From the NCBI GenBank assembly GCA_964399865.1, contig CAYNRJ010000001.1, positions 67,727 through 131,726 on the forward strand: a stretch of 64,000 bases of DNA, read 5' to 3'. The notes beneath the pieces are model-generated. The model was given only the letters and a program-made list of their open reading frames with translations. It did no database searches and was not told the origin of the DNA. The position numbers were made by a program, and so were the translations under genes. Below are positions 1 to 10,633 of this stretch, one piece after another; position 1 is the first letter of the stretch; every line of letters begins with the position of its first letter. This DNA comes from an uncultured Candidatus Saccharibacteria bacterium. GTDB lineage: Bacteria > Patescibacteriota > Minisyncoccia > Phycocordibacterales > UBA2100.

Positions 1-118
1 GGTCGCTCAGGGCGTCACCTCTTTCGGGTCCCTGTCTGCGCCTGCTGGCGCAGCGCTCGGTGTCGGCACCGTCGTGCCTGCGAAGACCCTCAAGAGATGA
101 CGCCCTTCGCTTAGGGTT
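1..118 (+). repeat. GC-rich structured repeat element, copy 1 (candidate ncRNA / structured mobile element)
   Basis: Shares conserved core TCGGGTC..CTGTCTGCGCC-TGCT-GGCGCAG-CGCTC..TCGGCAC-CGTC-GTGCC-TGCGA-AGACCCTCA with copies at 4497-4616 and 10512-10633. Outer arms AGGGCGTCACCTCTT (9-23) and AAGAGATGACGCCCT (92-106) are complementary with one mismatch. Lies in the 3' flank of trxB; may be truncated at the window edge. Confidence 0.6.
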
Positions 119-141
119 AAGAAAATATGCTCGATTACGCT

Positions 142-1065
142 CTACGCAAGACGTAATGCCATGTAGATATCCTCAAGCGCTTTTACTGCGTCGCCCGCGG
201 CGATGTTGTTCTGGTGGTAGGTGCCGTCAGTCACGTCTCCAGCAGCCCACACACGTGGGTGCGAGGTTCTTTGAGTACGAGGATCTACTTTAATTTGTTT
301 TATTGGACTCATCTCGAGCGCATTACCGAGCCACTCAGTATTTGGCAAAAGTCCTATCTCTACGAAAACGCCTTCTACGGGGAGCGTCTCTTCTTTCCCG
401 GTTTTTGTGTCCACCCAAGTAAAACCGTTCACAAATTTTTCTCCTACGACTGCTTTAGGCTGTGCGTTCATTACGAATCGCATATTTGGATGTTTTCTGG
501 CAGCCTCGACACTGATTTCGTCGGCTTTAAATGTTTCTGTGCGATTGAAAAGAGTTACGGTCTTGCAATATGCAAGAAGCTGCAGCGCAGTCTCGAGTCC
601 TGCGTTCCCACCTCCGATCACTGCAACGTCCTTGCCTTCAAAGAGAGGGCCATCGCAGGATGCGCAGTAGGTGAGGCCTTTTTGGTCGTATTCTTTGGCT
701 CCGGGCACCTCCAACATTCTTCTGCGAGCGCCGGATGCAATGAGGACAGCGCGTGCCTCAATTGAAGTACCATCTTTCAGCCCCACCGTTACGGAATCAT
801 TCTTTGGTTCAAGGCTTACGGCGCGAGCGGGATGCTTAATATCGAGGAAAGGCCCCTTGTAGCCTTCCACGTGCTTTTTGAGGCTGTCCGCGAGGTCGGC
901 ACCAGAAATCGCAGGAGTGCCTATCCAGTTTTGGACTTCGGAAGAAACACCGCTCTGACCACCCCACTCGTCTACGACAAGCGCTGTTTTTAATTGCTTA
1001 CGAGCTGCATATACAGCGGCAGCGGACCCAGCAGGTCCACCTCCGATAATTATAAGATCGTACAT
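142..1065 (-). CDS. trxB: thioredoxin-disulfide reductase
   Basis: N-terminal GGGPAG FAD motif, redox-active CASCDG, second GGGNAG NADPH motif; 307 aa typical of TrxB. Confidence 0.9.
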   Translation of the reverse strand: MYDLIIIGGGPAGSAAAVYAARKQLKTALVVDEWGGQSGVSSEVQNWIGTPAISGADLADSLKKHVEGYKGPFLDIKHPARAVSLEPKNDSVTVGLKDGTSIEARAVLIASGARRRMLEVPGAKEYDQKGLTYCASCDGPLFEGKDVAVIGGGNAGLETALQLLAYCKTVTLFNRTETFKADEISVEAARKHPNMRFVMNAQPKAVVGEKFVNGFTWVDTKTGKEETLPVEGVFVEIGLLPNTEWLGNALEMSPIKQIKVDPRTQRTSHPRVWAAGDVTDGTYHQNNIAAGDAVKALEDIYMALRLA

Positions 1066-1123
1066 AGAAGAAATAGGGACTAGTCGTCTATTTTACTACA
1101 TCCTCTAGGAGGATGACCAGTGT

Positions 1124-2356
1124 TTATCTTCGGCGGAGGAACGATGGAAGCCCGCCCCACGTGTCGTCGTCATCTTCCTTAGGTTTTGGTGTTTCCGCTG
1201 GCTTAATTGTCTCCTTGATGATCATTGGCTTCTCGTTTCTCTCTACCGGAGTAGGAGGGGTCGGGATATCGTCGTTTCGCTTGAACTCAGTTCGTCCTAC
1301 GCGTATTGAAGCAGGTGGAACATCCTGATCTTTTTTAGCCGCTATGCGCTGTGAAGTAGCAAAGACTGTCGTAGGGCGTACTGGAGAGCCACCGCTCGAT
1401 TCTGGAAAGCCTGTAGCGATGACCGTAACGCGCACGTAACCTTTCTTGAGAGAGTGATCGACAACAGTACCGAAGATGACCTTTGCATCTGGGTCGATAG
1501 ACTCGGTGATGACATTTGCTGCTTCCTGTATCTCGAGCATGCCGAGGTCCTCGCCGCCTGCAATAGAGAAGAGAATGCCTTTTGCGCCATGTACAGAGAC
1601 ATCGAGGAGAGGGGAATTTATAGCAGCACGAGCTGCAATCTCTGCTCGCTTCTCGCCGGAGGCTGTTCCGATACCCATGAGAGCAGACCCGGCGTTCTGC
1701 ATGACAGCGCGCACATCGGCGAAGTCTACGTTGATGATGCCTGTTTGAGTGATGAGGTCCGAGATACCTTCGACGGCCTGTTTCAGTATGTCATCGCACA
1801 TTGCGAACGCATTCTTTATTCCAGTATCACGCGAGACGATGGCGAGAAGTTTGTCGTTTGGAATAACGATTAGGGCGTCAACAGCTTTGCGAAGTTCTGC
1901 GAGACCCTGTTCTGCGAGTCTACCGCGTTGAGCGCCCTCAAATCCGAATGGCTTAGTGACGACACCTACAGTGAGAGCGCCGAGTTCGCGAGCAATTTTT
2001 GCAACAACTGGAGCCGCACCTGTGCCCGTGCCTCCTCCCATACCGCAGGTGATGAACACCATGTCCGAGCCTTTGATCGCTTCCTGCACTTCTTCTCTTG
2101 TCTCATCGGCCGCTTGCTTACCGAGGTCGGCATTCATGCCAGTACCTAAGCCACGAGTAAGAGCTTTTCCTATATGAATCTTTCTTTTAGCCTTAGATTT
2201 GTGAAGATCTTGGCCATCCGTGTTAACAGCAATGAAGTCCACACCTTCTACGTGCGAACTTACCATGTGGTTGACAGCGTTGCCACCAGATCCGCCTACG
2301 CCTATCACTCGAATTCGAGCGAATGACTCAACATCAGATTTCACTTGTTTAGTCAT
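1124..2356 (-). CDS. ftsZ: cell division GTPase FtsZ
   Basis: Tubulin signature GGGTGTG and the conserved FtsZ core, followed by a long Pro/Asp-rich C-terminal linker. Confidence 0.92.
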   Translation of the reverse strand: MTKQVKSDVESFARIRVIGVGGSGGNAVNHMVSSHVEGVDFIAVNTDGQDLHKSKAKRKIHIGKALTRGLGTGMNADLGKQAADETREEVQEAIKGSDMVFITCGMGGGTGTGAAPVVAKIARELGALTVGVVTKPFGFEGAQRGRLAEQGLAELRKAVDALIVIPNDKLLAIVSRDTGIKNAFAMCDDILKQAVEGISDLITQTGIINVDFADVRAVMQNAGSALMGIGTASGEKRAEIAARAAINSPLLDVSVHGAKGILFSIAGGEDLGMLEIQEAANVITESIDPDAKVIFGTVVDHSLKKGYVRVTVIATGFPESSGGSPVRPTTVFATSQRIAAKKDQDVPPASIRVGRTEFKRNDDIPTPPTPVERNEKPMIIKETIKPAETPKPKEDDDDTWGGLPSFLRRR

Positions 2357-2478
2357 GTTCCCGACATCATATCACTTTCAAGGCGAGGTCAAACTTGACC
2401 CCCTATAGCATGCATGTTTCAGTTTTCTTCGAGAAATCAGACGAAAACTGCACTTAGATTCGAACGGGTATGTATTCC

Positions 2479-3651
2479 TTATGGAAGAAGTGAACGAATC
2501 GCACGACGAACTGCTTCTCCTGCGCGTCTCAGTACTTCGCTAAATGAATATCTGCTATCAGTGTTGTCCTCCATATATGCCCAGCGGCAAAGTCCGTAGG
2601 CAGTGGACCACGTGGCATCTACACCCGAGGATCTTGGCAGATATCCTATCTGAGCAACTTGAGCCGGCAATTTAAGAGTCATGCGCGCTACATCAACAAC
2701 CGGAGGAAGTCCGCTACCTCCTCCAGTGAGAACAATTCCCGCTGGAAGAAGTCCTTGTCTGCCCATTGTTTTTAAATACACATTTACCTGCGTGAATATT
2801 TGTTTCAGTTTTGTTGCGATCACCGTATTCATTCTCTGAGGAGTGATTGTGCTACCTGTCACAGCACCTCGCTTCATTTGCTCAGCTTCAGTAAGAGGGA
2901 TGCGGAAAGCGAGCGCGATCGCGTTCGTGATCTCGCTTGAGCCGGTTGGAAATACTTTGATCGCAACAGGGAGGTCGTTATCAAAAATTATCGTCGAAAG
3001 GGTGTCCGCACCGATGTTTGCGAGGATAACGCCAGCAGTTTTCTGAGCCTTGGAAAGAGTCACGAAACTGGCAGCAAGTGGGGCAGCCATGACACCCTCT
3101 ACTTCTACGCCCGCCGCCTCAACCGTATCGATGATGTCGTCATGGTGCTTCGCGAGTACTGTAATGAAAAGGACCTCTACCGACAGTTTCGTTCCCTGTA
3201 GACCATTTGGCCTGCCAAAAACCTTTTGCCCGTCGACCCGGTACTCTATTGGGATGCTGTGAATAATGAATCGATTCAATAGTTTAGGACCACCGCGTTT
3301 TTCGCTTTCGCTGATAGCACGCTCTACATCGCGGTCGGTGACGACACCACCTGATTGCGTTAATGTAACCTCTCCTACGGAACGAATGTCTTCAAGACTC
3401 ATGCCTCCGAGCGCTACTCGAGCGCTTCGCACCGGCACTTTAGTAGAAGATCGAGCGCGTGCGAGAGCTTCCTGCAGACTTCGTGCCGCTTCCTTAATGT
3501 CTACTATGTATCCTTGGCGGATACCTTTCGAAACAGCTGTCCCTGTTCCGAGTACATGCATCGGGAGTTCTGGATTTTCTGCCGGTGTCGCAATAACCAC
3601 TTTAACGTGAGAAGAGCCGATATCGACACCGGTATACACGCTACGAGCCAT
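2479..3651 (-). CDS. ftsA: cell division protein FtsA (actin-like ATPase)
   Basis: N-terminal VDIGSSHVKVVIA phosphate-1 motif and LTGGGS adenosine motif; sits immediately upstream of ftsZ in the classic ftsA-ftsZ order. Confidence 0.85.
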   Translation of the reverse strand: MARSVYTGVDIGSSHVKVVIATPAENPELPMHVLGTGTAVSKGIRQGYIVDIKEAARSLQEALARARSSTKVPVRSARVALGGMSLEDIRSVGEVTLTQSGGVVTDRDVERAISESEKRGGPKLLNRFIIHSIPIEYRVDGQKVFGRPNGLQGTKLSVEVLFITVLAKHHDDIIDTVEAAGVEVEGVMAAPLAASFVTLSKAQKTAGVILANIGADTLSTIIFDNDLPVAIKVFPTGSSEITNAIALAFRIPLTEAEQMKRGAVTGSTITPQRMNTVIATKLKQIFTQVNVYLKTMGRQGLLPAGIVLTGGGSGLPPVVDVARMTLKLPAQVAQIGYLPRSSGVDATWSTAYGLCRWAYMEDNTDSRYSFSEVLRRAGEAVRRAIRSLLP

Positions 3652-3734
3652 CTAGCTATTGTAACGCTATTATGTGCAGCCGTAAAAACCTTATATAAGG
3701 GGATATTTAAGAAAAACCAAAAGCCGCGCGGAGA

Positions 3735-4124
3735 TTACTTAAAGCCGAATTTTCTCAGGACTTTCACCTCGAGTGCATCCATTTTTTCTCCGTGGTCATA
3801 GCCGAGCAGGTGAAAGCATCCATGCACAAATAGATGGGCGGTTCGATCGATCGTCTTCATGCCGAATGTCTTTGCCTCACGCTCCGCTTTACGAATGTTC
3901 AGAAAGATTTCCCCCTCAATTTTTCCGATAGGGAAGGAAAGCACGTTTGGAGCGTATGTCTTCTTTCGATATTCGCGGTTCATACGACGCGAAAGATTGT
4001 CGCCGCATACAACTATGGAGAGGGAATAGGTCTTCGGTAAGATTGCCTTAGCAATTTTCTCAAATGGAATACGCGGAGTGTTGCTCCGCGTTGTGTTCCG
4101 TATATCTACGCTACCCGTAGGCAT
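3735..4124 (-). CDS. ybeY: rRNA maturation endoribonuclease YbeY
   Basis: H-x3-H-x5-H metal-binding motif (HLFVHGCFHLLGYDH); ~129 aa. Confidence 0.8.
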   Translation of the reverse strand: MPTGSVDIRNTTRSNTPRIPFEKIAKAILPKTYSLSIVVCGDNLSRRMNREYRKKTYAPNVLSFPIGKIEGEIFLNIRKAEREAKTFGMKTIDRTAHLFVHGCFHLLGYDHGEKMDALEVKVLRKFGFK

Positions 4125-4450
4125 TAGTGGGCGATAGGAGCTCCTTCAGGAGCGGTAGGAGTAGCAGACTGCGTTGGAGCGTCTGACTGACCTTGGCGAG
4201 AGTATGGGGAACGGCGAGCTGGGGCTTCAATTACCTTGCCTTCTTTTACAAGTTGGCGGTATTCAGCACGGCGCTTCAAGAGTTTGAGAGCGTGCTTTTT
4301 CTTAACTGTTTTCGATGCACTTCGAGCGTAATAGCGCTGTTTTCGGACAGTTTTTACAAGGCCTGTGCCCTGCACCTTCCTGCTGAATTTGCGAATAGTC
4401 GCAAGGGCGGTTTCGCTGCCTGTTTTCGATACCTCTACGTTTATGGACAT
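4124..4450 (-). CDS. rpsU: 30S ribosomal protein S21-like
   Basis: Basic small protein with an S21-like core (RKFSRKV...KKKHALKLLKRRAEY) and a C-terminal extension. Start placed at the internal ATG (MSINVEV). Overlaps the ybeY start by 1 nt. Confidence 0.5.
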   Translation of the reverse strand: MSINVEVSKTGSETALATIRKFSRKVQGTGLVKTVRKQRYYARSASKTVKKKHALKLLKRRAEYRQLVKEGKVIEAPARRSPYSRQGQSDAPTQSATPTAPEGAPIAH

Positions 4451-4496
4451 GAGAGGGAACTTTAGCATATAAGCCAAAAAACGCAAAGAAGACCCA

Positions 4497-4616
4497 CCAC
4501 TAGGAAGTGAGGGGATTACGTGCTTCGAGGGTGTCTCGCAGGCTGACGAGCCGAGAGGCAGCGCTCCGCCAGCAGGCGGAGACAGCGACCCGAGAAGTAC
4601 GTAATCCCTGAACGCC
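4497..4616 (-). repeat. GC-rich structured repeat element, copy 3 (candidate ncRNA)
   Basis: Reverse complement aligns to copies 1 and 2. Outer arms GGGATTACGTACTTC / GAAGCACGTAATCCC; inner hairpins CUCCGCC-UGCU-GGCGGAG and GGCU-CGUC-AGCC. Begins 5 nt after the stop of the surface-protein gene. Its 3' hairpin plus a U-run forms a terminator before rpsU. Confidence 0.6.
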
Positions 4617-4621
4617 GACCC

Positions 4622-6739
4622 CTACACCTCCTGGAACGTCGGCACAATCCTCACCTTCGACGTCCTCGTCACCGTATCTCCATCAAGCCCAAGACAGGAA
4701 AGAGTGTAGATGGTCTCTTCCTGTATCAGATCAGTACGATTTCCAGAGGCGCCACTCCACGAGCTGCCATTTGTCCTCGTCACGGAGCACGAGCTGACAT
4801 TTCGCACCTCCCAGGTCACAGAGACCGAGCTGCCACGCTGCACTAGAAGAGGACTCACAGTCCAAGTCACCACCTCAGCAGGAGGAGGAGGGGTACATAT
4901 ACCAAGGTTGCACTGATAGCTGCAGGTTGTCACGACTTCTCCGTCGCAGCTGTTCACGACATCTGCTCCTGAACACTCATTGAAACAATTCTGTTCGCAT
5001 ACACCATTTCGTAGGATTTGTCCTGCAGGACACGTAGTGATTGTGGTCTCAGGACACTCAAACGTTCCGGTCCAAGTGACGCGGACTTCTCCACGAGCAC
5101 CATTGCCACCATCTCGCCATCCATTGCCCCCTGCGCCCCCACTTCCAACAGTGACAGGTACTGAGGCTCCAACGGTGAGCGCACCCACAGCATATGTCTT
5201 GGTTGCTCGCCCTCCGCCACCACCGCCACCACCTTCTTGATCAAACCAGACCCATGCACCACTTCCACCTCCTCCAGGAGCACTGCCTGCGTTCCCTGGA
5301 GCTCCTCGAGATGCTGCGGCAACTCCGCCAGCGCCGCCTCCAGTTGGAGCACCTGCACCACCTGTTCCACCTGCGAAGTTTTGCCCAGAGCCTGCGATAC
5401 CATTTCCTCCATTTGCACCTGAGTCACCGCCAGAATACGTTCCCCCTTGAGAAGGAGAGGTGCCGTATATACCAGCACCTCCTCCACGACCGATCAACGT
5501 TGTATTGAAAGAAGAATCACCACCCCTCGTGCCGTTACTGTGTCCGATTCCATCTCCCGCACCTCCACCACCTGCGCCATATACGTCGACACTGAGAGTT
5601 GTGTACGTTGGTACGGTGAACGAAGAAGAGCTGGTGAATACTCGAGTGTTGGATGCTGTATATGATTCACCTGGATCAACTCCTGCAGGGCAGTACCCTG
5701 GAGGGCACTGACTCGCGCTCGCCTGTACTCCTGTGATGTTGGGGCACATGTCAGGGCCACCTCCTCCGCCCCCACCTCCTCCTCCTCCTGGGCACTGAGA
5801 TGCTGAGGTTTGTACTCCTGACATGTTTGGACATGCGTCCTGCACACACTGGCCATTCTGCAGAACGTATCCAGAAGGAACACTGGATTGGTTGCCATTA
5901 ATGTTTGGACAAACGTCAGGTCCACCAGTTGAACACTGTGACGTACTAGTCTGCACTCCTGGCATGTTTGGGCACTTGTCTTCGCATTGATCTGCGAGGT
6001 TGTCCCAATAGTCGGCCTGGCTGTCGTTGCCGATGGATGCGTAGTAGTTGGCGGCGGTGCGGTATTCGGAGCAGGTGGATGGGTCGTCTTTTGGTCCCGG
6101 ATCATTATCACCCGTGTCGGTATCACACTCATTTGGATACACATCGTAATGCGGCTGACCATTTTTTCCTGTGGAGTATACGGAATAGGTGCCACACGGC
6201 GCACTCACGTATGAGAAATCATGGTACGTGTAAGTAGGATCAGAGTCGGCAGTTTTTCCGTCGCCAATCGGAAATGAGTTGACTGTCTCATAATTGTCAT
6301 ACTGCGTAAGATATGTACAATCGTCCCCCACACTTGAGGCCGAGTTTTGCGTCACTACACAATCTTCACCTTCAAAGGCTCCAGAATAATCACCGCCACT
6401 TAGTCCTCCGCCGCTGCTAGAGCAATATTGATCATAGCCGGCATTACACATATCGTCTTCCGAAAAGCAGTAACCACCTTGCTCTATTGGCCGATTCGAA
6501 GGGCAATCCGCATCCTCGCAATAACTTTGATATCCTGCATTGCATAGATCTTCAGGCGGCCAATAACTTGGGTCATGGCAGGCTCCATTTATATCTGCGA
6601 TTTGGTTACCAGAACAAGATCCCGCAGCTTGCAGCTGATATGGAAGGAGAGTGGCAAGGAGGAGCGCAATGAAAGTGAGGAGTATTGTAAGCACTGATGC
6701 GCTCGAGCTTTGAAAATGGGTCAAGGAAGACATATGCAT
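4622..6739 (-). CDS. large secreted/cell-surface protein: signal peptide, Cys-rich N-domain, tandem CPNxxGxQxSxSQC repeats, Gly-rich fibre-like domain, C-terminal Ig-like domain
   Basis: N-terminal hydrophobic signal (LTILLTFIALLLATLL). About four tandem Cys-bounded repeats. Long GGxGG-rich segment resembling phage-fibre/adhesin glycine-rich domains. Clean 705-aa ORF. Confidence 0.65.
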   Translation of the reverse strand: MHMSSLTHFQSSSASVLTILLTFIALLLATLLPYQLQAAGSCSGNQIADINGACHDPSYWPPEDLCNAGYQSYCEDADCPSNRPIEQGGYCFSEDDMCNAGYDQYCSSSGGGLSGGDYSGAFEGEDCVVTQNSASSVGDDCTYLTQYDNYETVNSFPIGDGKTADSDPTYTYHDFSYVSAPCGTYSVYSTGKNGQPHYDVYPNECDTDTGDNDPGPKDDPSTCSEYRTAANYYASIGNDSQADYWDNLADQCEDKCPNMPGVQTSTSQCSTGGPDVCPNINGNQSSVPSGYVLQNGQCVQDACPNMSGVQTSASQCPGGGGGGGGGGGPDMCPNITGVQASASQCPPGYCPAGVDPGESYTASNTRVFTSSSSFTVPTYTTLSVDVYGAGGGGAGDGIGHSNGTRGGDSSFNTTLIGRGGGAGIYGTSPSQGGTYSGGDSGANGGNGIAGSGQNFAGGTGGAGAPTGGGAGGVAAASRGAPGNAGSAPGGGGSGAWVWFDQEGGGGGGGGRATKTYAVGALTVGASVPVTVGSGGAGGNGWRDGGNGARGEVRVTWTGTFECPETTITTCPAGQILRNGVCEQNCFNECSGADVVNSCDGEVVTTCSYQCNLGICTPPPPAEVVTWTVSPLLVQRGSSVSVTWEVRNVSSCSVTRTNGSSWSGASGNRTDLIQEETIYTLSCLGLDGDTVTRTSKVRIVPTFQEV
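5759..5791 (-). repeat. (GGN)11 microsatellite encoding an 11-residue poly-Gly tract inside the surface-protein gene
   Basis: CCTCCTCCGCCCCCACCTCCTCCTCCTCCT on the + strand corresponds to GGGGGGGGGGG in the protein; in-frame length variation is possible. Confidence 0.7.
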
Positions 6740-6978
6740 TATTGAGTAGGAGGGGCGGAAGGTTGCACTGGGAAGGGTGGCATTAAGAGATCAGAAGATC
6801 TGATATTACTTTCCTCCGCCGCGGGAGTATTTGAGTATGCAAAATAGCCAGTCAAAACCGTGAGGAGAATAAATATTAAGATCAAAAAAAGAAGAGCCTT
6901 CAGTAACGTCAGATGATGAACATTCTTCTGCTGCTCTTGCGGTTGAATAGGGGAAGCGAATTGCGACTGTGGAGGCAT
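6739..6978 (-). CDS. small single-pass membrane protein, translationally coupled to the surface-protein gene
   Basis: 78 aa with one TM helix (LLKALLFLILIFILLTVLTGYFAY). Its TAA stop overlaps the ATG of the downstream gene (TAATG). Confidence 0.5.
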   Translation of the reverse strand: MPPQSQFASPIQPQEQQKNVHHLTLLKALLFLILIFILLTVLTGYFAYSNTPAAEESNIRSSDLLMPPFPVQPSAPPTQ

Positions 6979-7040
6979 TCAAAAAGTGTACGATATAAAA
7001 GCAAGAAAATCCGCGAGGAAATAGTGAATTGGGGAAAACT

Positions 7041-7082
7041 AAAAAGCAAAGAGGGTCGCCCGGACGTGGGGCGACCCTCTTG
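7041..7082 (-). terminator. intrinsic terminator of the GC-rich secreted-protein gene
   Basis: Perfect 12-bp stem AGAGGGTCGCCC / GGGCGACCCTCT with a 7-nt loop, followed on the - strand by UGCUUUUUAGUUUU. Confidence 0.7.
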
Positions 7083-7109
7083 ATGAAGGCATTCACGCGG
7101 TGTGAACGC

Positions 7110-7559
7110 CTACATGAGGCCGAGCGCGATCAGCGTTGCGGCGGTCGCCGGTTCGGCATCGTCGTACGGCCCGCAACGGCCGGCCACGACGAAGCGTGCA
7201 CCGCCCTCGTTGTAGGACGAAGAGCCGCAGGCTTCGATCTGGGCATCAGGCCCCCATTGCACGATTGCAGAAGGACCGAAGCCGGTGCCCTGACGCAGCC
7301 ATACGGACACGCCGTTGTTGGGGTTGACGTACGCCGACCAGGTGACGCCACGGTCGTCCGTGACCTCGGCCGTGAAGTACTTCGAGCTCTGGGCGATATC
7401 CGCGAGGATGTCGCCGAACGGCGGCGGAGACGGCGCCATGACGACCACGAACGCCGTCGCTGCCGGCTTCGTATCGTCGACAGAGGCAGCAAGCGCATTC
7501 GGGATGGCCGCGGCAAGCATAAGAGCGGCCGAAGCCGCGATTGCGATACGCTTCATCAT
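7110..7559 (-). CDS. small secreted protein (signal peptide), carried on a GC-rich island
   Basis: Start at MMKRIAIAASAALMLAAAIPNALA preceded by AAAGGAGGG. Region 7029-7700 is visibly much GC-richer than its flanks. Has its own strong terminator. No recognisable domain. Confidence 0.55.
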   Translation of the reverse strand: MMKRIAIAASAALMLAAAIPNALAASVDDTKPAATAFVVVMAPSPPPFGDILADIAQSSKYFTAEVTDDRGVTWSAYVNPNNGVSVWLRQGTGFGPSAIVQWGPDAQIEACGSSSYNEGGARFVVAGRCGPYDDAEPATAATLIALGLM

Positions 7560-7728
7560 CTGATTTGGCCCTCCTTTCAGGCCATGTAAAGTGAAGATCA
7601 GTAGAACCCTGCTCGCCAGAGTGGCGTAGCTAGGTGGTCGCATTCTACCACTCCTTACGGCTCCGTCAAGAGCCGTATGGGCCTCGGAGAGGAGTCAATG
7701 TACCTATTTAGCATGATGACTACTGATG

Positions 7729-7748
7729 CGAAAAAGGCAATAAGCCTT
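7729..7748 (-). terminator. candidate hisS terminator
   Basis: AAGGC-UUAUU-GCCUU hairpin followed by UUUUCGC on the - strand, 16 nt after the hisS stop. Confidence 0.4.
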
Positions 7749-7763
7749 ATGGGATAACTTATT

Positions 7764-8993
7764 TTATCCAGCCACAGCGCTCTTCCACACTCCCATCCGA
7801 TGTCTTTTAAGGTAATTCGTTAATTCAGGAACCGGAACTGCCTCTTGAGAGTTTGTTGCGACCTCACGAACTAGTATCGTGCCCTCAACAGCCTCCTTAT
7901 GTCCCATAATCAGAATGTACGGAGTTGCGTGATGTCTTGCTGCAGCCATCTGTTCGCCAATTCTTTCATGAAGAAGTCCTTGGTGGACCGGAATACTGTC
8001 CTTTCGTAAGGTCTCAAGAATCGAAAGTGATCTACGACGTGCTTCTGCCCCTAGGTGAGCGAAATAAATCGCTGGCAATCCGGCGTTGTCTCTTTTTTGT
8101 CTTGTTGGAACACGTCCGCGGAGTTCACACGTGATACTGATCATCGCAGACGGCATTGATCGACGTGCAAATCTTGCTGCAAGAGGATCGTAGCGGCCTC
8201 CGAAGGCGAGCGAGATGCGTCCTCCTGTTTCTTGATCGAGTGTTGATATCTCAAATAGGGAATGTGACCAGCAATCACGACTTCCAAGTACCTGTGGAGA
8301 GAGTTCGTACGGCAACCCGAACACTTCTAGGTACTCAAGTAGCTCCCAGAATCGTCTTCGCTCTTCTTCTGTAAGATATTCCATCGCCTGAGGCGCGCGC
8401 GGGACAGCAGGGTGTCCTCGTTCGATGAGTTGGACGAGCGCGCCTAGTGGATCTGTAGCTGCGCGAGGGCGAAGTGTCGGCGTAATTGACTCAATATGTT
8501 TTCGTAGATAGGCAGAAACGTCTCGCACGAAGCGATTTGATGACTCCATCGATCCAATGTTGTTCACGGAGAGTACTCGCTTGGAAATTCCCGCTTCCTG
8601 CGCGATTGCATCAGCTACAACTATGAGAAGCGCCTCGGCAATTGCAGAAGAATTTCCCACAACATGCAATTCAAGACCTACACTCGGTATTCCATCGCGC
8701 TCTTTTGCAGAATTTTCGCTCATTCGCCATACAAGCACCGGTTTTTCCGGGGTTTGTGCGCAAGAAATACACTTTCGAGCGGAAACAGCGAGTGGTCGCT
8801 CCTCGCGGCGTGCGAACATGATTTCCGATGGATCGCGCTTCGACTGAACTGGCTTTGGTTCGCCGCTTCTTGCTTGGCGAGAAGTTTTCATTGACTCTTC
8901 GAGCGATGAAAATCCGTAATATTCTGCGATACGGATAGCCGATGAAAGAAATCCGGCGGTATTTTGATGCTGAGTATCTTTTAGACGGATCAT
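7764..8993 (-). CDS. hisS: class IIa aminoacyl-tRNA synthetase, histidyl-tRNA synthetase-like
   Basis: GGRYD motif-3 region and C-terminal class II anticodon-binding domain (ILIMGHKE...). N-terminal motif 1/2 region is divergent. Confidence 0.6.
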   Translation of the reverse strand: MIRLKDTQHQNTAGFLSSAIRIAEYYGFSSLEESMKTSRQARSGEPKPVQSKRDPSEIMFARREERPLAVSARKCISCAQTPEKPVLVWRMSENSAKERDGIPSVGLELHVVGNSSAIAEALLIVVADAIAQEAGISKRVLSVNNIGSMESSNRFVRDVSAYLRKHIESITPTLRPRAATDPLGALVQLIERGHPAVPRAPQAMEYLTEEERRRFWELLEYLEVFGLPYELSPQVLGSRDCWSHSLFEISTLDQETGGRISLAFGGRYDPLAARFARRSMPSAMISITCELRGRVPTRQKRDNAGLPAIYFAHLGAEARRRSLSILETLRKDSIPVHQGLLHERIGEQMAAARHHATPYILIMGHKEAVEGTILVREVATNSQEAVPVPELTNYLKRHRMGVWKSAVAG

Positions 8994-10511: not shown

Positions 10512-10633
10512 GGTCGTTCGCGGGTGTTGTGTTGTTCGGGTCGCTGTCTGCCGCTGCTGCGGCAGCGCTCACTCTCGGCCCGACGGCCTGCGAGAGACCC
10601 TCACAACACAACACCCTCTCACTAAGGAGAGGG
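10512..10633 (+). repeat. GC-rich structured repeat element, copy 2 (candidate ncRNA)
   Basis: Starts immediately after the pth stop. Perfect 14-bp outer stem GGGTGTTGTGTTGT / ACAACACAACACCC. Inner hairpins CTGCCGC-TGCT-GCGGCAG and GGCC-CGAC-GGCC. 3' hairpin CCCTCTC-ACTAAG-GAGAGGG. Confidence 0.65.

What the first reader, a model, noticed from the sequence alone, without database searches (positions are those of the whole stretch)
4622..6978. Surface-protein operon: 705-aa Cys/Gly-rich secreted protein with phage-fibre-like glycine-rich domain, hypervariable poly-Gly microsatellite, and coupled small TM partner
The large ORF has a signal peptide and a Cys-rich N-domain. It carries about four tandem CPNxxGxQxSxSQC repeats. 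A long GGxGxG-rich segment resembles the glycine-rich receptor-binding regions of phage tail fibres (gp38-type) and bacterial adhesins. A C-terminal beta-rich Ig-like domain follows. One repeat contains an uninterrupted (GGN)11 tract (5759-5791) prone to in-frame slippage. The upstream 78-aa single-TM protein is translationally coupled (TAATG). This is a plausible variable adhesin for cell-cell or host attachment. Copy 3 of the structured repeat lies directly 3' of it.
Basis: partly seen in the sequence, partly recalled or inferred. Interest (0 to 1): 0.5.

Follow-up and report, generated by a model that had tools for sequence, protein, structure and literature searches.

The report
Surface protein with phage-fibre-like tip
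A tiny-genome (candidate phyla radiation) bacterium encodes a secreted, disulfide-rich modular surface protein that carries the same glycine-lattice domain phages use on their tail fibres to recognise host cells, and it is paired with a small conserved membrane protein. It is most likely an attachment protein, and there is no evidence that its poly-glycine tract is hypervariable.

Summary
The sequence features are real. A 79-aa single-pass membrane ORF (6739-6978, -) abuts a 705-aa ORF (4622-6739, -) through TAATG.

The large protein has these parts, in order:
- signal peptide
- two CNAGY Cys repeats
- an orphan middle region
- four CPN disulfide repeats with an 11-Gly spacer
- a 200-aa Gly-rich domain
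- a Cys-hairpin module
- a C-terminal Ig-like domain

The C-terminal module was found only in Patescibacteria. It nearly always ends P-x-[FWY]-x-E-x (58 of 66 proteins).

Two relatives (P0170, P0260) share every module except the Gly-rich domain. Both have the same small MPPQ…TM…Pro-rich ORF immediately upstream. The partner gene is therefore real, and the phage-like domain is an interchangeable cargo.

The "hypervariable microsatellite" claim is unsupported. The tract uses mixed codons, with at most four perfect GGA units. Assemblies from three sequencing runs are 100% identical over the parts they cover; only one of them, besides the window, spans the tract. No other strain was available.

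Verdict: a new variant of a known kind, a modular adhesin with a phage-type receptor-binding domain. Interest is moderate.

The parts
6739..6978 (-). 79-aa small membrane protein gene. Layout: MPPQ start, hydrophilic N-tail, one TM helix, Pro-rich C-tail ending PPTQ.
   Evidence: ORF; hydrophobicity. It is called as a gene on public contigs. Matching 71-aa and 69-aa ORFs (MPPQQ...TM...PPPP) lie immediately upstream of P0260 and P0170. The L033 and L034 copies differ at codon positions 1/2/3 by 20/9/43, with 27 synonymous and 21 non-synonymous codon changes.
6838..6909 (-). Transmembrane helix of the small protein (TLLKALLFLILIFILLTVLTGYFA).
   Evidence: Kyte-Doolittle 19-residue maximum of 2.84; translation checked.
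4622..6739 (-). 705-aa secreted modular surface protein gene. An alternative start lies at 6733, giving the 703-aa P0153.
6626..6739 (-). Signal peptide (aa 1-38), with an LQA|AG cleavage-type site.
   Evidence: Hydrophobic maximum of 2.57 at aa 14-32. Relatives carry AEA|NHC at the same place. No predictor was available, so cleavage is inferred.
6413..6625 (-). N-terminal Cys-repeat region: two copies of G-x-C...[DE]-x-C-N-A-G-[YW]-x-x-Y-C.
   Evidence: The same repeat occurs 3-5 times in P0170 and P0260. No Pfam or NCBIfam hit.
5984..6412 (-). Middle region (aa 110-252) of unknown fold.
   Evidence: Only weak similarity to P0170, as part of a 32%-identity alignment over 262 columns. No family hits. 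Not modelled.
5702..5983 (-). Four CPN disulfide repeats (aa 253-346), probably a stalk.
   Evidence: An exhaustive HMMER search found 281 cluster representatives, nearly all matching through this region. In other proteins the repeat co-occurs with DUF11, VWA, SpaA-like and InlB B-repeat domains and with C-termini that read like sortase signals.
5756..5788 (-). Gly11 spacer between CPN repeats 3 and 4, encoded by imperfect (GGN)11.
   Evidence: The equivalent linker after repeat 1 is STGGPD. In P0007 the linkers are Pro runs.
5060..5671 (-). TNF-like plus polyglycine-lattice ('brush') domain (aa 357-560).
5210..5233 (-). Gly8 run inside the Gly-rich domain. It is a conserved structural motif (GGGGGGG-[YR]-x-K-x-Y), not a spacer.
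   Evidence: Alignments A1 and A2.
4898..5059 (-). Cys-hairpin subdomain (aa 561-614), the first half of the conserved C-terminal module.
   Evidence: Alignments A3 and A7. AF2 shows short beta-hairpins. 63% identity to P0005 over 27 aa.
4646..4897 (-). Ig-like beta-sandwich (aa 615-698) with one conserved Cys pair and a conserved Trp.
4625..4645 (-). Conserved extreme C-terminal tail VPTFQEV, matching P-x-[FWY]-x-E-x-COOH.
   Evidence: 58 of 66 proteins with this module end in the motif. In the model the tail lies after the last strand.
7049..7081 (-). Terminator-like hairpin (13 pairs plus a T run) that closes the upstream gene. It makes the 79-aa and 705-aa genes their own two-gene unit.
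4512..4608 (.). Copy of a dispersed structured repeat, between the stop of the large gene and rpsU.
   Evidence: Two public contigs end at 4562, inside the repeat.

Best explanation
This is a two-gene surface-protein unit in a Patescibacteria (CPR) bacterium.

Shown:
- Gene 1 encodes a 79-aa single-pass membrane protein with a Pro-rich tail on the far side of its helix.
- Gene 2 starts at or within 5 nt of gene 1's stop. It encodes a 705-aa, 34-Cys modular protein with a signal-peptide-like N-terminus.
- Domain order: two CNAGY Cys repeats, an orphan middle region, four CPN disulfide repeats with a Gly11 spacer, a TNF-like plus polyglycine-lattice domain, a Cys-hairpin, and an Ig-like domain ending P-x-F-x-E-x.
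- The glycine-lattice domain has the fold that cyanophage Pam3 gp24 and mycobacteriophage Bxb1 gp33 carry at their tail tips, where it is assigned to receptor recognition.
- The hairpin plus Ig module is the constant C-terminal part of a family found here only in Patescibacteria. The N-terminal cargo of that family varies.
- Two relatives keep the whole scaffold and the small partner gene but lack the glycine-lattice domain.

Inferred:
- The protein is exported by Sec, and its signal peptide is cleaved.
- It is held at the cell envelope through its constant C-terminal module, possibly by docking on the Pro-rich tail of the co-translated small membrane protein.
- It displays the phage-type binding domain and the Cys-rich head outward, to bind a surface structure on the partner (host) cell or on another substrate.
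- The Gly11 run acts as a flexible linker between stalk repeats, not as a switch.
For: - Anatomy.
- Gly-rich domain model: pLDDT 94.3, pTM 0.90.
- Profile against PDB sequences: gp33 E 0.005 and Pam3 fibre E 0.009. RemZ 8gl8_D scores E 2.5e-5.
- A sequence relative, P0033, sits next to two Peptidase_S74 tail-fibre genes, a GH108 lysin and an SU10 adaptor.
[quoted passage not shown] PMC13243795 calls such 'brush' domains antireceptors.
- C-terminal module: pLDDT 91.7 and Ig-like.
- All 22 genome loci carrying that module are Patescibacteria.
- 58 of 66 module proteins end P-x-[FWYV]-x-E-x.
- P0170 and P0260 share the scaffold but lack the Gly-rich domain.
- The small partner ORF is conserved with stop/start spacing of -4, -1 and +3 nt, and evolves like a coding sequence.
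- 14 of the 19 family loci with a complete gene start also have a gene for an N-terminally membrane-anchored protein ending within about 25 nt upstream.
- A terminator-like hairpin upstream isolates the two genes.
- Neighbouring genes are housekeeping (rpsU, ybeY, ftsA-like). No phage genes are nearby.
Against: - No binding, localisation or expression data exist.
- The signal peptide has no Lys or Arg in its n-region, and cleavage could not be predicted with a dedicated tool.
- The anchoring role of the C-terminal module and of the small protein rests only on gene position and conservation.
- The window's 79-aa protein shows no significant similarity to the other kinds of upstream membrane proteins in the wider family.
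- In phages the domain works in trimeric fibres with a helical shaft and a chaperone. Neither is present here.
- The full-length protein and residues 39-346 were not modelled.
- Pfam Gly_rich_2 is below threshold.
- Foldseek matches are weak (E 0.03, TM 0.14).
Confidence: 0.6

Rival explanations
1. Phase- or length-variable adhesin. The (GGN)11 tract slips in frame, so spacer length, and with it adhesin reach or antigenicity, varies rapidly within populations.
For: - The tract lies in a linker whose sister linker has only GG (STGGPD against PG11PD), so it has expanded at some time.
- An 11-nt direct repeat, GGAGGAGGTGG, occurs twice 15 nt apart and could mediate a 5-codon deletion.
- One public contig (L024, SRR14271373) starts inside the tract at 5765.
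Against: - Codons are mixed, and the longest perfect unit run is (GGA)4. TRF gives 85% matches.
- The one other full-length assembly (SRR14271372) and the public full-length protein P0153 both have 11 Gly. Contigs from three runs are 100% identical to the window over the parts they cover.
- The 90% cluster holds no length variant.
- Contigs from the low-coverage runs also break at ordinary positions, such as 6787, so the break at 5765 need not mean heterogeneity.
- In-frame changes would alter only a linker.
Confidence: 0.1
2. Structural envelope protein (S-layer-like or cell-wall matrix). The glycine lattice, Cys repeats and Ig domain build a rigid surface coat and have no specific ligand.
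For: - The family is widespread in Patescibacteria, with several tandem paralogues in one genome (L001).
- The protein is Gly-, Ser- and Thr-rich.
Against: - The cargo domains vary strongly between family members, and the Gly-rich domain is present or absent between close relatives. That pattern is typical of binding modules rather than lattice-forming proteins.
- The closest solved folds are receptor-binding tips.
Confidence: 0.2
3. Remnant of a prophage, or a phage-derived tail-fibre gene that is still virion-associated.
For: The Gly-rich domain matches phage fibre proteins best. Many sequence relatives are short proteins without signal peptides, and at least one sits in a phage tail module.
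Against: - The protein has a signal-peptide-like N-terminus and 34 Cys.
- The flanking genes are rpsU, ybeY, ftsA-like, a HisRS-like gene and signal peptidase.
- The window protein matches no PHROG family.
- GC content in the 2-kb bins covering the gene (0.52-0.55) is only slightly above the window's usual 0.47-0.52.
- The C-terminal module occurs only in cellular Patescibacteria loci.
- Relatives share the scaffold without the phage-like domain.
Confidence: 0.05
4. Secreted effector or toxin-delivery protein. The phage-type domain targets a neighbouring cell, the Cys-rich N-terminal part is the active (lytic, lectin or toxin) moiety, and the small membrane protein is an immunity or export helper.
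For: - A small membrane protein sits directly upstream, an arrangement reminiscent of bacteriocin and immunity gene pairs.
- The orphan N-terminal and middle regions have no assigned fold.
Against: - No toxin, peptidase or lysin family hit.
- The N-terminal repeat is a small disulfide repeat whose copy number varies from 2 to 5 in relatives. That is typical of stalk or binding repeats.
- The PADLOC library was not searched.
Confidence: 0.08

Closest known systems
Cyanophage Pam3 tail fibre gp24 (PDB 7YPX/7YFW): TNF-like plus glycine-rich receptor-recognition domains
   Different: gp24 is a trimeric fibre with an N-terminal alpha-helical shaft and a dedicated chaperone, gp25 (PMC9608196). Here the domain is internal to a secreted, disulfide-rich bacterial protein. 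It is preceded by CPN repeats and followed by an Ig-like module, and no chaperone-like neighbour is present.
Mycobacteriophage Bxb1 gp33 'tail wing brush' (PDB 9D93) and siphovirus polyglycine 'brush' domains
   Different: gp33 is a virion tail-tip component. The match covers only part of the domain.
Pfam PF21722 Gly_rich_2 and bacterial surface proteins that carry such Gly-rich regions (for example RemZ, PDB 8GL8)
   Same: 12 of 15 family domains hit PF21722 at E below 0.1. Five relatives pass its threshold. RemZ is the best PDB sequence hit of the family profile (E 2.5e-5). From my own knowledge, not checked here, RemZ is a Flavobacterium cell-surface protein secreted by the type 9 system.
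   Different: The window protein scores 15-17 bits against a cut-off of 24.3. In most cases only about 70 of the 226 profile positions match, and they align to the C-terminal third of this domain.
ALK/LTK extracellular TNF-like plus glycine-rich (TG) domain
   Same: A glycine-rich polyglycine lattice at a fibre tip. The Pam3 paper links gp24 and gp38 structurally (52 Cα, PMC9608196).
Modular Gram-positive-type surface adhesins (LPXTG or DUF11/SpaA-type stalk proteins)
   Same: Signal peptide, repeated small stalk modules and a terminal constant module. The same CPN repeats occur in proteins with DUF11, VWA and SpaA-like domains and with C-termini that read like sortase signals.
   Different: This protein has no LPXTG, no C-terminal TM helix and no basic tail. 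It ends in an Ig-like domain with P-x-F-x-E-x.

Membership tests
Pfam PF21722 (Gly_rich_2) | Whole-protein score at or above the gathering cut-off of 24.3 bits | tested here: not met
   15.4 bits for the whole protein and 16.7 bits for the isolated domain. Relatives P0015, P0026, P0065, P0081 and P0085 pass at 26-31 bits.
Pfam PF21722 (Gly_rich_2) | Match over most of the 226-position profile | tested here: not met
   In the window protein and four of the five passing relatives, only profile positions about 23-93 match. They align to the C-terminal part of the domain.
Phage TNF-like plus glycine-rich receptor-binding domain (Pam3 gp24 type) | Beta-sandwich plus lattice of extended Gly-rich loops, with structural similarity well above background | tested here: met
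Phage TNF-like plus glycine-rich receptor-binding domain (Pam3 gp24 type) | Part of a trimeric fibre: N-terminal alpha-helical shaft and an adjacent fibre chaperone gene | tested here: not met
   The domain is preceded by Cys-rich CPN repeats. The neighbouring genes encode a 79-aa TM protein and a 149/177-aa secreted protein, neither with a significant family hit. Oligomeric state is not testable here.
Phage S16 gp38-type adhesin | Structural match to 6F45 (polyglycine sandwich on a beta-helix) | tested here: not met
ALK/LTK TG domain (Pfam Gly_rich) | Pfam hit or strong fold match | tested here: not met
Sec-exported protein with cleavable signal peptide | n-region, hydrophobic core, and a small-x-small cleavage site | tested here: inconclusive
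   The hydrophobic core and LQA|AG are present, and homologues have AEA|N. The n-region lacks Lys and Arg, and no signal-peptide predictor was available.
Sortase (LPXTG) substrates | C-terminal LPXTG, hydrophobic helix and basic tail | tested here: not met
   The protein ends ...VRIVPTFQEV, with no C-terminal hydrophobic segment.
Type 9 secretion C-terminal domain proteins | Recognised CTD family hit, in an organism with an outer membrane and T9SS | tested here: not met
   No NCBIfam or Pfam CTD hit. The module was found only in Patescibacteria, which from my own knowledge lack an outer membrane. The Ig-like fold alone is generic.
Patescibacteria C-terminal hairpin plus Ig module family (defined here, unnamed) | Five Cys hairpin region, Pro-rich linker, Ig-like domain with conserved W and Cys pair, and extreme C-terminus P-x-[FWY]-x-E-x | tested here: met
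   Alignments A3 and A7. The window ORF scores E 4.6e-36 against the family HMM. The tail motif is present.
Simple-sequence contingency (phase/length-variable) locus | Long perfect repeat tract | tested here: not met
   At most four perfect GGA units. Four different Gly codons are used.
Simple-sequence contingency (phase/length-variable) locus | Tract length differs between strains or reads | not testable with these tools
   Only one strain was available: contigs from three runs are 100% identical to the window. No relatives turned up in genome or metagenome scans.
Translationally coupled gene pair | Stop/start overlap or near-abutment conserved in orthologous loci | tested here: met
   Spacing is -1 nt (window), -4 nt (L033) and +3 nt (L034). 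No Shine-Dalgarno-like motif lies before the large gene. Actual coupling is not testable here.

The most novel reading that the evidence does not exclude
The constant C-terminal module (Cys-hairpin plus Ig-like domain ending P-x-[FWY]-x-E-x-COOH), together with the membrane-anchored protein encoded immediately upstream, would form a previously undescribed Patescibacteria-specific system for retaining or sorting surface proteins. It would be functionally analogous to LPXTG/sortase or to the T9SS C-terminal domain. Interchangeable cargo would be hung on it, including receptor-binding domains exchanged with phages. Ultrasmall episymbiotic bacteria would use these cargoes to recognise the cells they live on.
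Probability: 0.2. Interest if true: 0.75.

Novelty: new variant of a known kind. Interest (0 to 1): 0.45.

Why it matters
Cultivated Patescibacteria live attached to other microbes. Outside type IV pili in Saccharibacteria, the molecules that recognise the partner cell are largely unknown (abstract of bioRxiv 10.1101/2024.11.25.624915).

This locus offers a concrete, testable candidate. It is a secreted protein that displays the glycine-lattice domain phages use for host recognition, mounted on a scaffold and C-terminal module specific to this lineage.

It also shows that this phage 'brush' domain moves as a cassette. Close relatives have the same scaffold without it. It points to three unannotated building blocks that recur in many uncharacterised surface proteins: the CPN repeat, the CNAGY repeat and the C-terminal module.

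If the C-terminal module proves to be an anchoring signal, it would allow Patescibacteria surface proteomes to be predicted from sequence.

Tried and rejected
- NCBIfam and PHROGs gave nothing for the large protein. phmmer against PDB sequences gave only chance hits.
- Genome and metagenome scans with the whole protein found no relative.
A four-sequence alignment, A4, worked.
- The window protein as read from the first ATG is not in the gene index. It was recovered only through a fragment's cluster, as P0153.
- A composite full-length alignment for AlphaFold (A6) was misaligned by MAFFT: Gly-domain rows were stretched onto the C-terminus. I dropped the full-length model and modelled the C-terminal module alone.
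- I tested whether the 79-aa protein is a truncated form of the TM plus cupredoxin-like proteins found upstream in five family loci. There was no significant similarity, so I rejected this.
- The secreted proteins upstream in the window, L033 and L034 are not detectably related.
- Exact and 3-mismatch searches missed the other copies of the 3' repeat. blastn-short found them.
- I considered guessing partial protein sequences to recover the other side of the contig break in the Gly tract. I did not run it. The 90% cluster has only two members, and the low-coverage runs also break at ordinary sites, so success was unlikely.
Full report
**Observation**

The region holds two co-directional ORFs on the minus strand.
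- The first ORF is 79 aa (6739-6978). It has one strongly hydrophobic helix (TLLKALLFLILIFILLTVLTGYFA; KD19 maximum 2.84) and a Pro-rich C-tail.
- The second ORF is 705 aa (4622-6739). Its ATG shares one base with the TAA of the first ORF (TAATG).

A public gene call for the identical protein, P0153 (703 aa), starts at the second ATG, 6 nt downstream. The literal overlap is therefore uncertain, but the abutment is not.

The large protein is 17% Gly and has 34 Cys. Its codons are GGA GGA GGA GGA GGT GGG GGC GGA GGA GGT GGC. TRF scores it at 85% matches. All coordinates in the parts list were checked by translation.

**Domain map**

| Residues | Feature |
|---|---|
| 1-38 | Signal-peptide-like segment (LQA\|AG) |
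| 39-109 | Two CNAGY Cys repeats |
| 110-252 | Orphan middle region |
| 253-346 | Four CPN repeats: three short (CPNxxGVQxSxSQC) and one long (CPNINGNQSSVPSGYVLQNGQCV) |
| 318-328 | Gly11 linker between CPN repeats 3 and 4 |
| 357-560 | Gly-rich domain |
| 561-614 | Cys-hairpin region |
| 615-698 | Beta domain |
| 699-705 | Tail VPTFQEV |

Pfam gives only sub-threshold hits: Gly_rich_2 at 15.4 bits against a cut-off of 24.3, and CBM_4_9. NCBIfam and PHROGs give none.

**The Gly-rich domain**

The first homology search found only 11 proteins. They share this domain at 33-45% identity, plus the C-terminal module.

A profile of 15 domain copies (A1) retrieved 106 more proteins. Most are 200-370 aa with the domain at their C-terminus.

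With a 102-sequence alignment (A2), AlphaFold2 gave pLDDT 94.3 and pTM 0.90. The model has nine beta-strands plus long, confident stretches that are neither helix nor strand.

- Foldseek ranked ALK and LTK TG domains and a Bxb1 tail-tip chain first, but weakly (E 0.03, TM 0.14).
- The A2 profile also detects gp33 (E 0.005) and the Pam3 fibre (E 0.009) by sequence. RemZ (8gl8_D) scores E 2.5e-5.

The Pam3 paper describes exactly this pair of domains, a TNF-like sandwich plus a glycine-rich lattice with GGGGxGG motifs and a variable distal tip. It names them the host-receptor recognition part of gp24. It relates them more distantly to S16 gp38 and to C. elegans ALK (PMC9608196). Another paper calls such polyglycine 'brush' domains siphovirus antireceptors (PMC13243795).

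One sequence relative, P0033, lies directly after two Peptidase_S74 fibre genes and near a GH108 lysin and an SU10 adaptor. That is a phage tail module.

Across the 102 sequences, 26 Gly columns are at least 90% conserved. The internal Gly8 run (aa 503-510) is one of these structural motifs.

The relation to Pfam Gly_rich_2 is partial. Some relatives pass the threshold, at 26-31 bits. In most of them only profile positions about 23-90 match.

**The C-terminal module**

An alignment of the last ~130 residues shows five conserved Cys, a Pro-rich linker, a conserved Trp and Cys pair, and an invariant P...E at the end (A3). It has no Pfam or PDB sequence match.

- A genome scan found 22 loci, all in Patescibacteria MAGs labelled Parcubacteria, Kaiserbacteria, Paceibacterota, Minisyncoccia, or 'Saccharibacteria'.
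- The module sits at the extreme C-terminus in all 22 of those proteins (in two, nine more residues follow it). N-terminal cargo varies, and the 19 complete proteins start with a hydrophobic N-terminal segment.
- 58 of 66 family proteins end P-x-[FWYV]-x-E-x.
- In the model, the tail follows the last strand.

**Scaffold relatives and the CPN repeat**

An exhaustive HMMER search with aa 39-346 found 281 cluster representatives. Nearly all match through the CPN repeats. In those proteins the repeats accompany DUF11, VWA, SpaA-like and InlB B-repeat domains. Reading the sequences, P0155 and P0007 end in what look like sortase-type signals, and P0156 starts with what looks like a prepilin signal. 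The CPN repeat is thus an unannotated stalk-type repeat of cell-surface proteins.

Two hits, P0170 (494 aa) and P0260 (558 aa, starting MMHMSSL), share the full scaffold:
- signal peptide (AEA|NHC)
- 3-5 CNAGY or CNAGW repeats, including the near-identical stretch CPSNRPIEQ-G-C
- CPN repeats
- the C-terminal module, at 50-52% identity

Neither has the Gly-rich domain. In this scaffold the phage-type domain is therefore an inserted or lost cassette.

**The small partner**

Unannotated ORFs of 71 and 69 aa lie immediately upstream of P0260 and P0170. Both have the same layout: an MPPQ(Q) start, an acidic or hydrophilic stretch, L-x-K, a TM helix, Y, and a Pro-rich tail. They end 4 nt inside, or 3 nt before, the start of the large gene.

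The two copies differ at codon positions 1/2/3 by 20/9/43 changes, with 27 synonymous and 21 non-synonymous codon changes. That pattern indicates a protein-coding sequence under constraint. The window copy is called as a gene on public contigs.

In the wider family, 14 of the 19 loci with a complete gene start also have, ending within about 25 nt upstream, a gene for a protein with an N-terminal TM helix. These proteins belong to different families: cupredoxin-like in five loci and TPR-like in three. None is significantly similar to the 79-aa protein.

A 13-pair terminator-like hairpin at 7049-7081 precedes the small gene. I saw no Shine-Dalgarno-like motif before either start.

**Organism and context**

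The flanking genes are housekeeping: rpsU, ybeY, ftsA-like, a HisRS-like gene, signal peptidase and peptidyl-tRNA hydrolase. Within the window, only this ORF carries the Gly-rich, C-terminal or CPN modules.

P0153 is on record on a 613-kb contig. All relatives of the C-terminal module are Patescibacteria. I therefore infer a Patescibacteria (probably Parcubacteria/Paceibacteria-type) genome. This rests on relatives, not on a marker-gene placement.

**The poly-Gly tract**

The tract is the linker between CPN repeats 3 and 4 (QCP-G11-PDMCPN). The linker after repeat 1 is QCSTGGPDVCPN, and in P0007 the linkers are Pro runs. It therefore looks like an expanded flexible spacer.

It has at most four perfect GGA units and one 11-nt internal direct repeat.

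Contigs from three sequencing runs of one study are 100% identical to the window over the parts they cover. Only L025 (SRR14271372) spans the tract, and it has all 11 Gly. The 90% cluster holds no length variant.

One contig starts inside the tract at 5765. Contigs from these low-coverage runs also break at ordinary sites such as 6787.

No other strain was found. Hypervariability is therefore unsupported and could not be properly tested.

**Mechanism**

Shown:
- the domain architecture
- the phage-fibre-type fold of aa 357-560
- the lineage-specific constant C-terminal module with its conserved tail
- the cassette behaviour of the Gly-rich domain
- the conserved, abutting small membrane-protein gene

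Inferred:
- Sec export and disulfide formation
- retention at the envelope through the constant C-terminal module, possibly on the Pro-rich tail of the small protein
- outward display of the phage-type binding domain and Cys-rich head, to bind a partner-cell surface

I put this at 0.6. The main rivals are a structural envelope protein (0.2), a length-variable adhesin (0.1), an effector-delivery protein (0.08) and a prophage remnant (0.05).

**Comparison and novelty**

The protein works like a modular surface adhesin carrying a phage-type receptor-binding domain.
- It meets the fold criterion of the Pam3 gp24-type domain, but not the fibre context (helical shaft, chaperone).
- It fails the Pfam Gly_rich_2 threshold.
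- It is not a gp38, ALK, LPXTG or T9SS-CTD member.

Full-text searches found no paper that mentions polyglycine together with Patescibacteria, and none that mentions PF21722. A broader search returned only work on type IV pili and diversity-generating retroelements. I found no description of the C-terminal module or of the CPN and CNAGY repeats.

I rate it a new variant of a known kind, with moderate interest.

Noticed in passing
window 4512-4608, about 20-95 and about 10530-10610: A dispersed structured repeat with a core of about 75 nt (GAGGGTCTCTCGCAGGC...GCCGAGAG.GAGCGCTGCGCCAGCAGGCGCAGACAGCGACCCGA). Three copies lie in intergenic DNA. RNAalifold predicts 36 pairs, and 15 of them show compensatory changes among the three copies. 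The two G-U pairs favour the + strand of the 4512-4608 copy, which is antisense to the flanking genes. Rfam gives no match. Two independent public contigs end at 4562, inside the repeat.
   Followed up: partly
L002-L023 (genome loci), P0118-P0152: A Patescibacteria-only C-terminal module (Cys-hairpin plus Ig-like domain) is attached to many different cargos. 58 of 66 members end P-x-[FWYV]-x-E-x. No Pfam, NCBIfam or PDB sequence match was found. It could be an unrecognised anchoring or sorting module.
   Followed up: partly
L002, L008, L009, L010, L013 (gene immediately upstream of the C-terminal-module gene): Five family loci have, 3-6 nt upstream or overlapping by 4 nt, a 157-185-aa protein with an N-terminal TM helix and a conserved GF..L[VI]S[YF]TD.GF.P....I..G....FTNNS domain that looks cupredoxin-like by eye. 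Three other loci (L005, L006, L011) have a TM plus TPR-like protein of 260-288 aa instead.
   Followed up: no
P0154-P0302 (hits to window aa about 250-345): The CPN repeat (CPN[IL][DENS]G.Q...P.GY.....G.CV, about 30 aa, with Pro- or Gly-rich linkers) occurs in at least 281 protein clusters. It has no Pfam model. It is found next to DUF11, VWA, SpaA-like and InlB B-repeat domains. Two such proteins (P0155, P0007) end in what read like sortase signals, and one (P0156) starts with what reads like a prepilin signal.
   Followed up: partly
L001 (contig of P0005), 1-8265: Three of four consecutive genes on one strand (L001 1-2378, 3445-5931 and 6001-8265, interrupted by an unannotated 320-aa gene) encode large Gly-rich-domain proteins. 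Two have Gly_rich_2 hits, and one of those also has a PG_binding_1 hit. This suggests a tandem paralogue array in a related genome.
   Followed up: no
P0029, P0033-P0038, P0041-P0044 and others; L029/L030 8001-8825: Many short relatives (about 210-310 aa) have no signal peptide. They share an N-terminus like MATPxSGxISxxxINxxFGRG...YRG..WY followed by the Gly-rich domain. P0033 lies in a phage tail-fibre module, after two Peptidase_S74 genes. This looks like an unannotated phage fibre-tip family.
   Followed up: partly
window 6733-6741; L033 2209-2220: The start region ATGCAYATGTC (Met-His-Met-Ser) is conserved between the window and the diverged locus L033, and public gene calls disagree on which ATG is used. 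The conservation may reflect the coupling signal rather than the protein sequence.
   Followed up: partly
window 7764-8993 (-): The 409-aa HisRS-like protein carries only the HGTP_anticodon Pfam family in the precomputed annotation. No catalytic-core family is listed. It may be a divergent or atypical synthetase paralogue.
   Followed up: no
window 5765 (start of L024) and 6787 (end of L028): One public short-read contig from the same study starts inside the Gly11 tract, and another ends at an ordinary coding position in the 79-aa gene. The break in the tract therefore cannot be taken as evidence of tract heterogeneity.
   Followed up: partly
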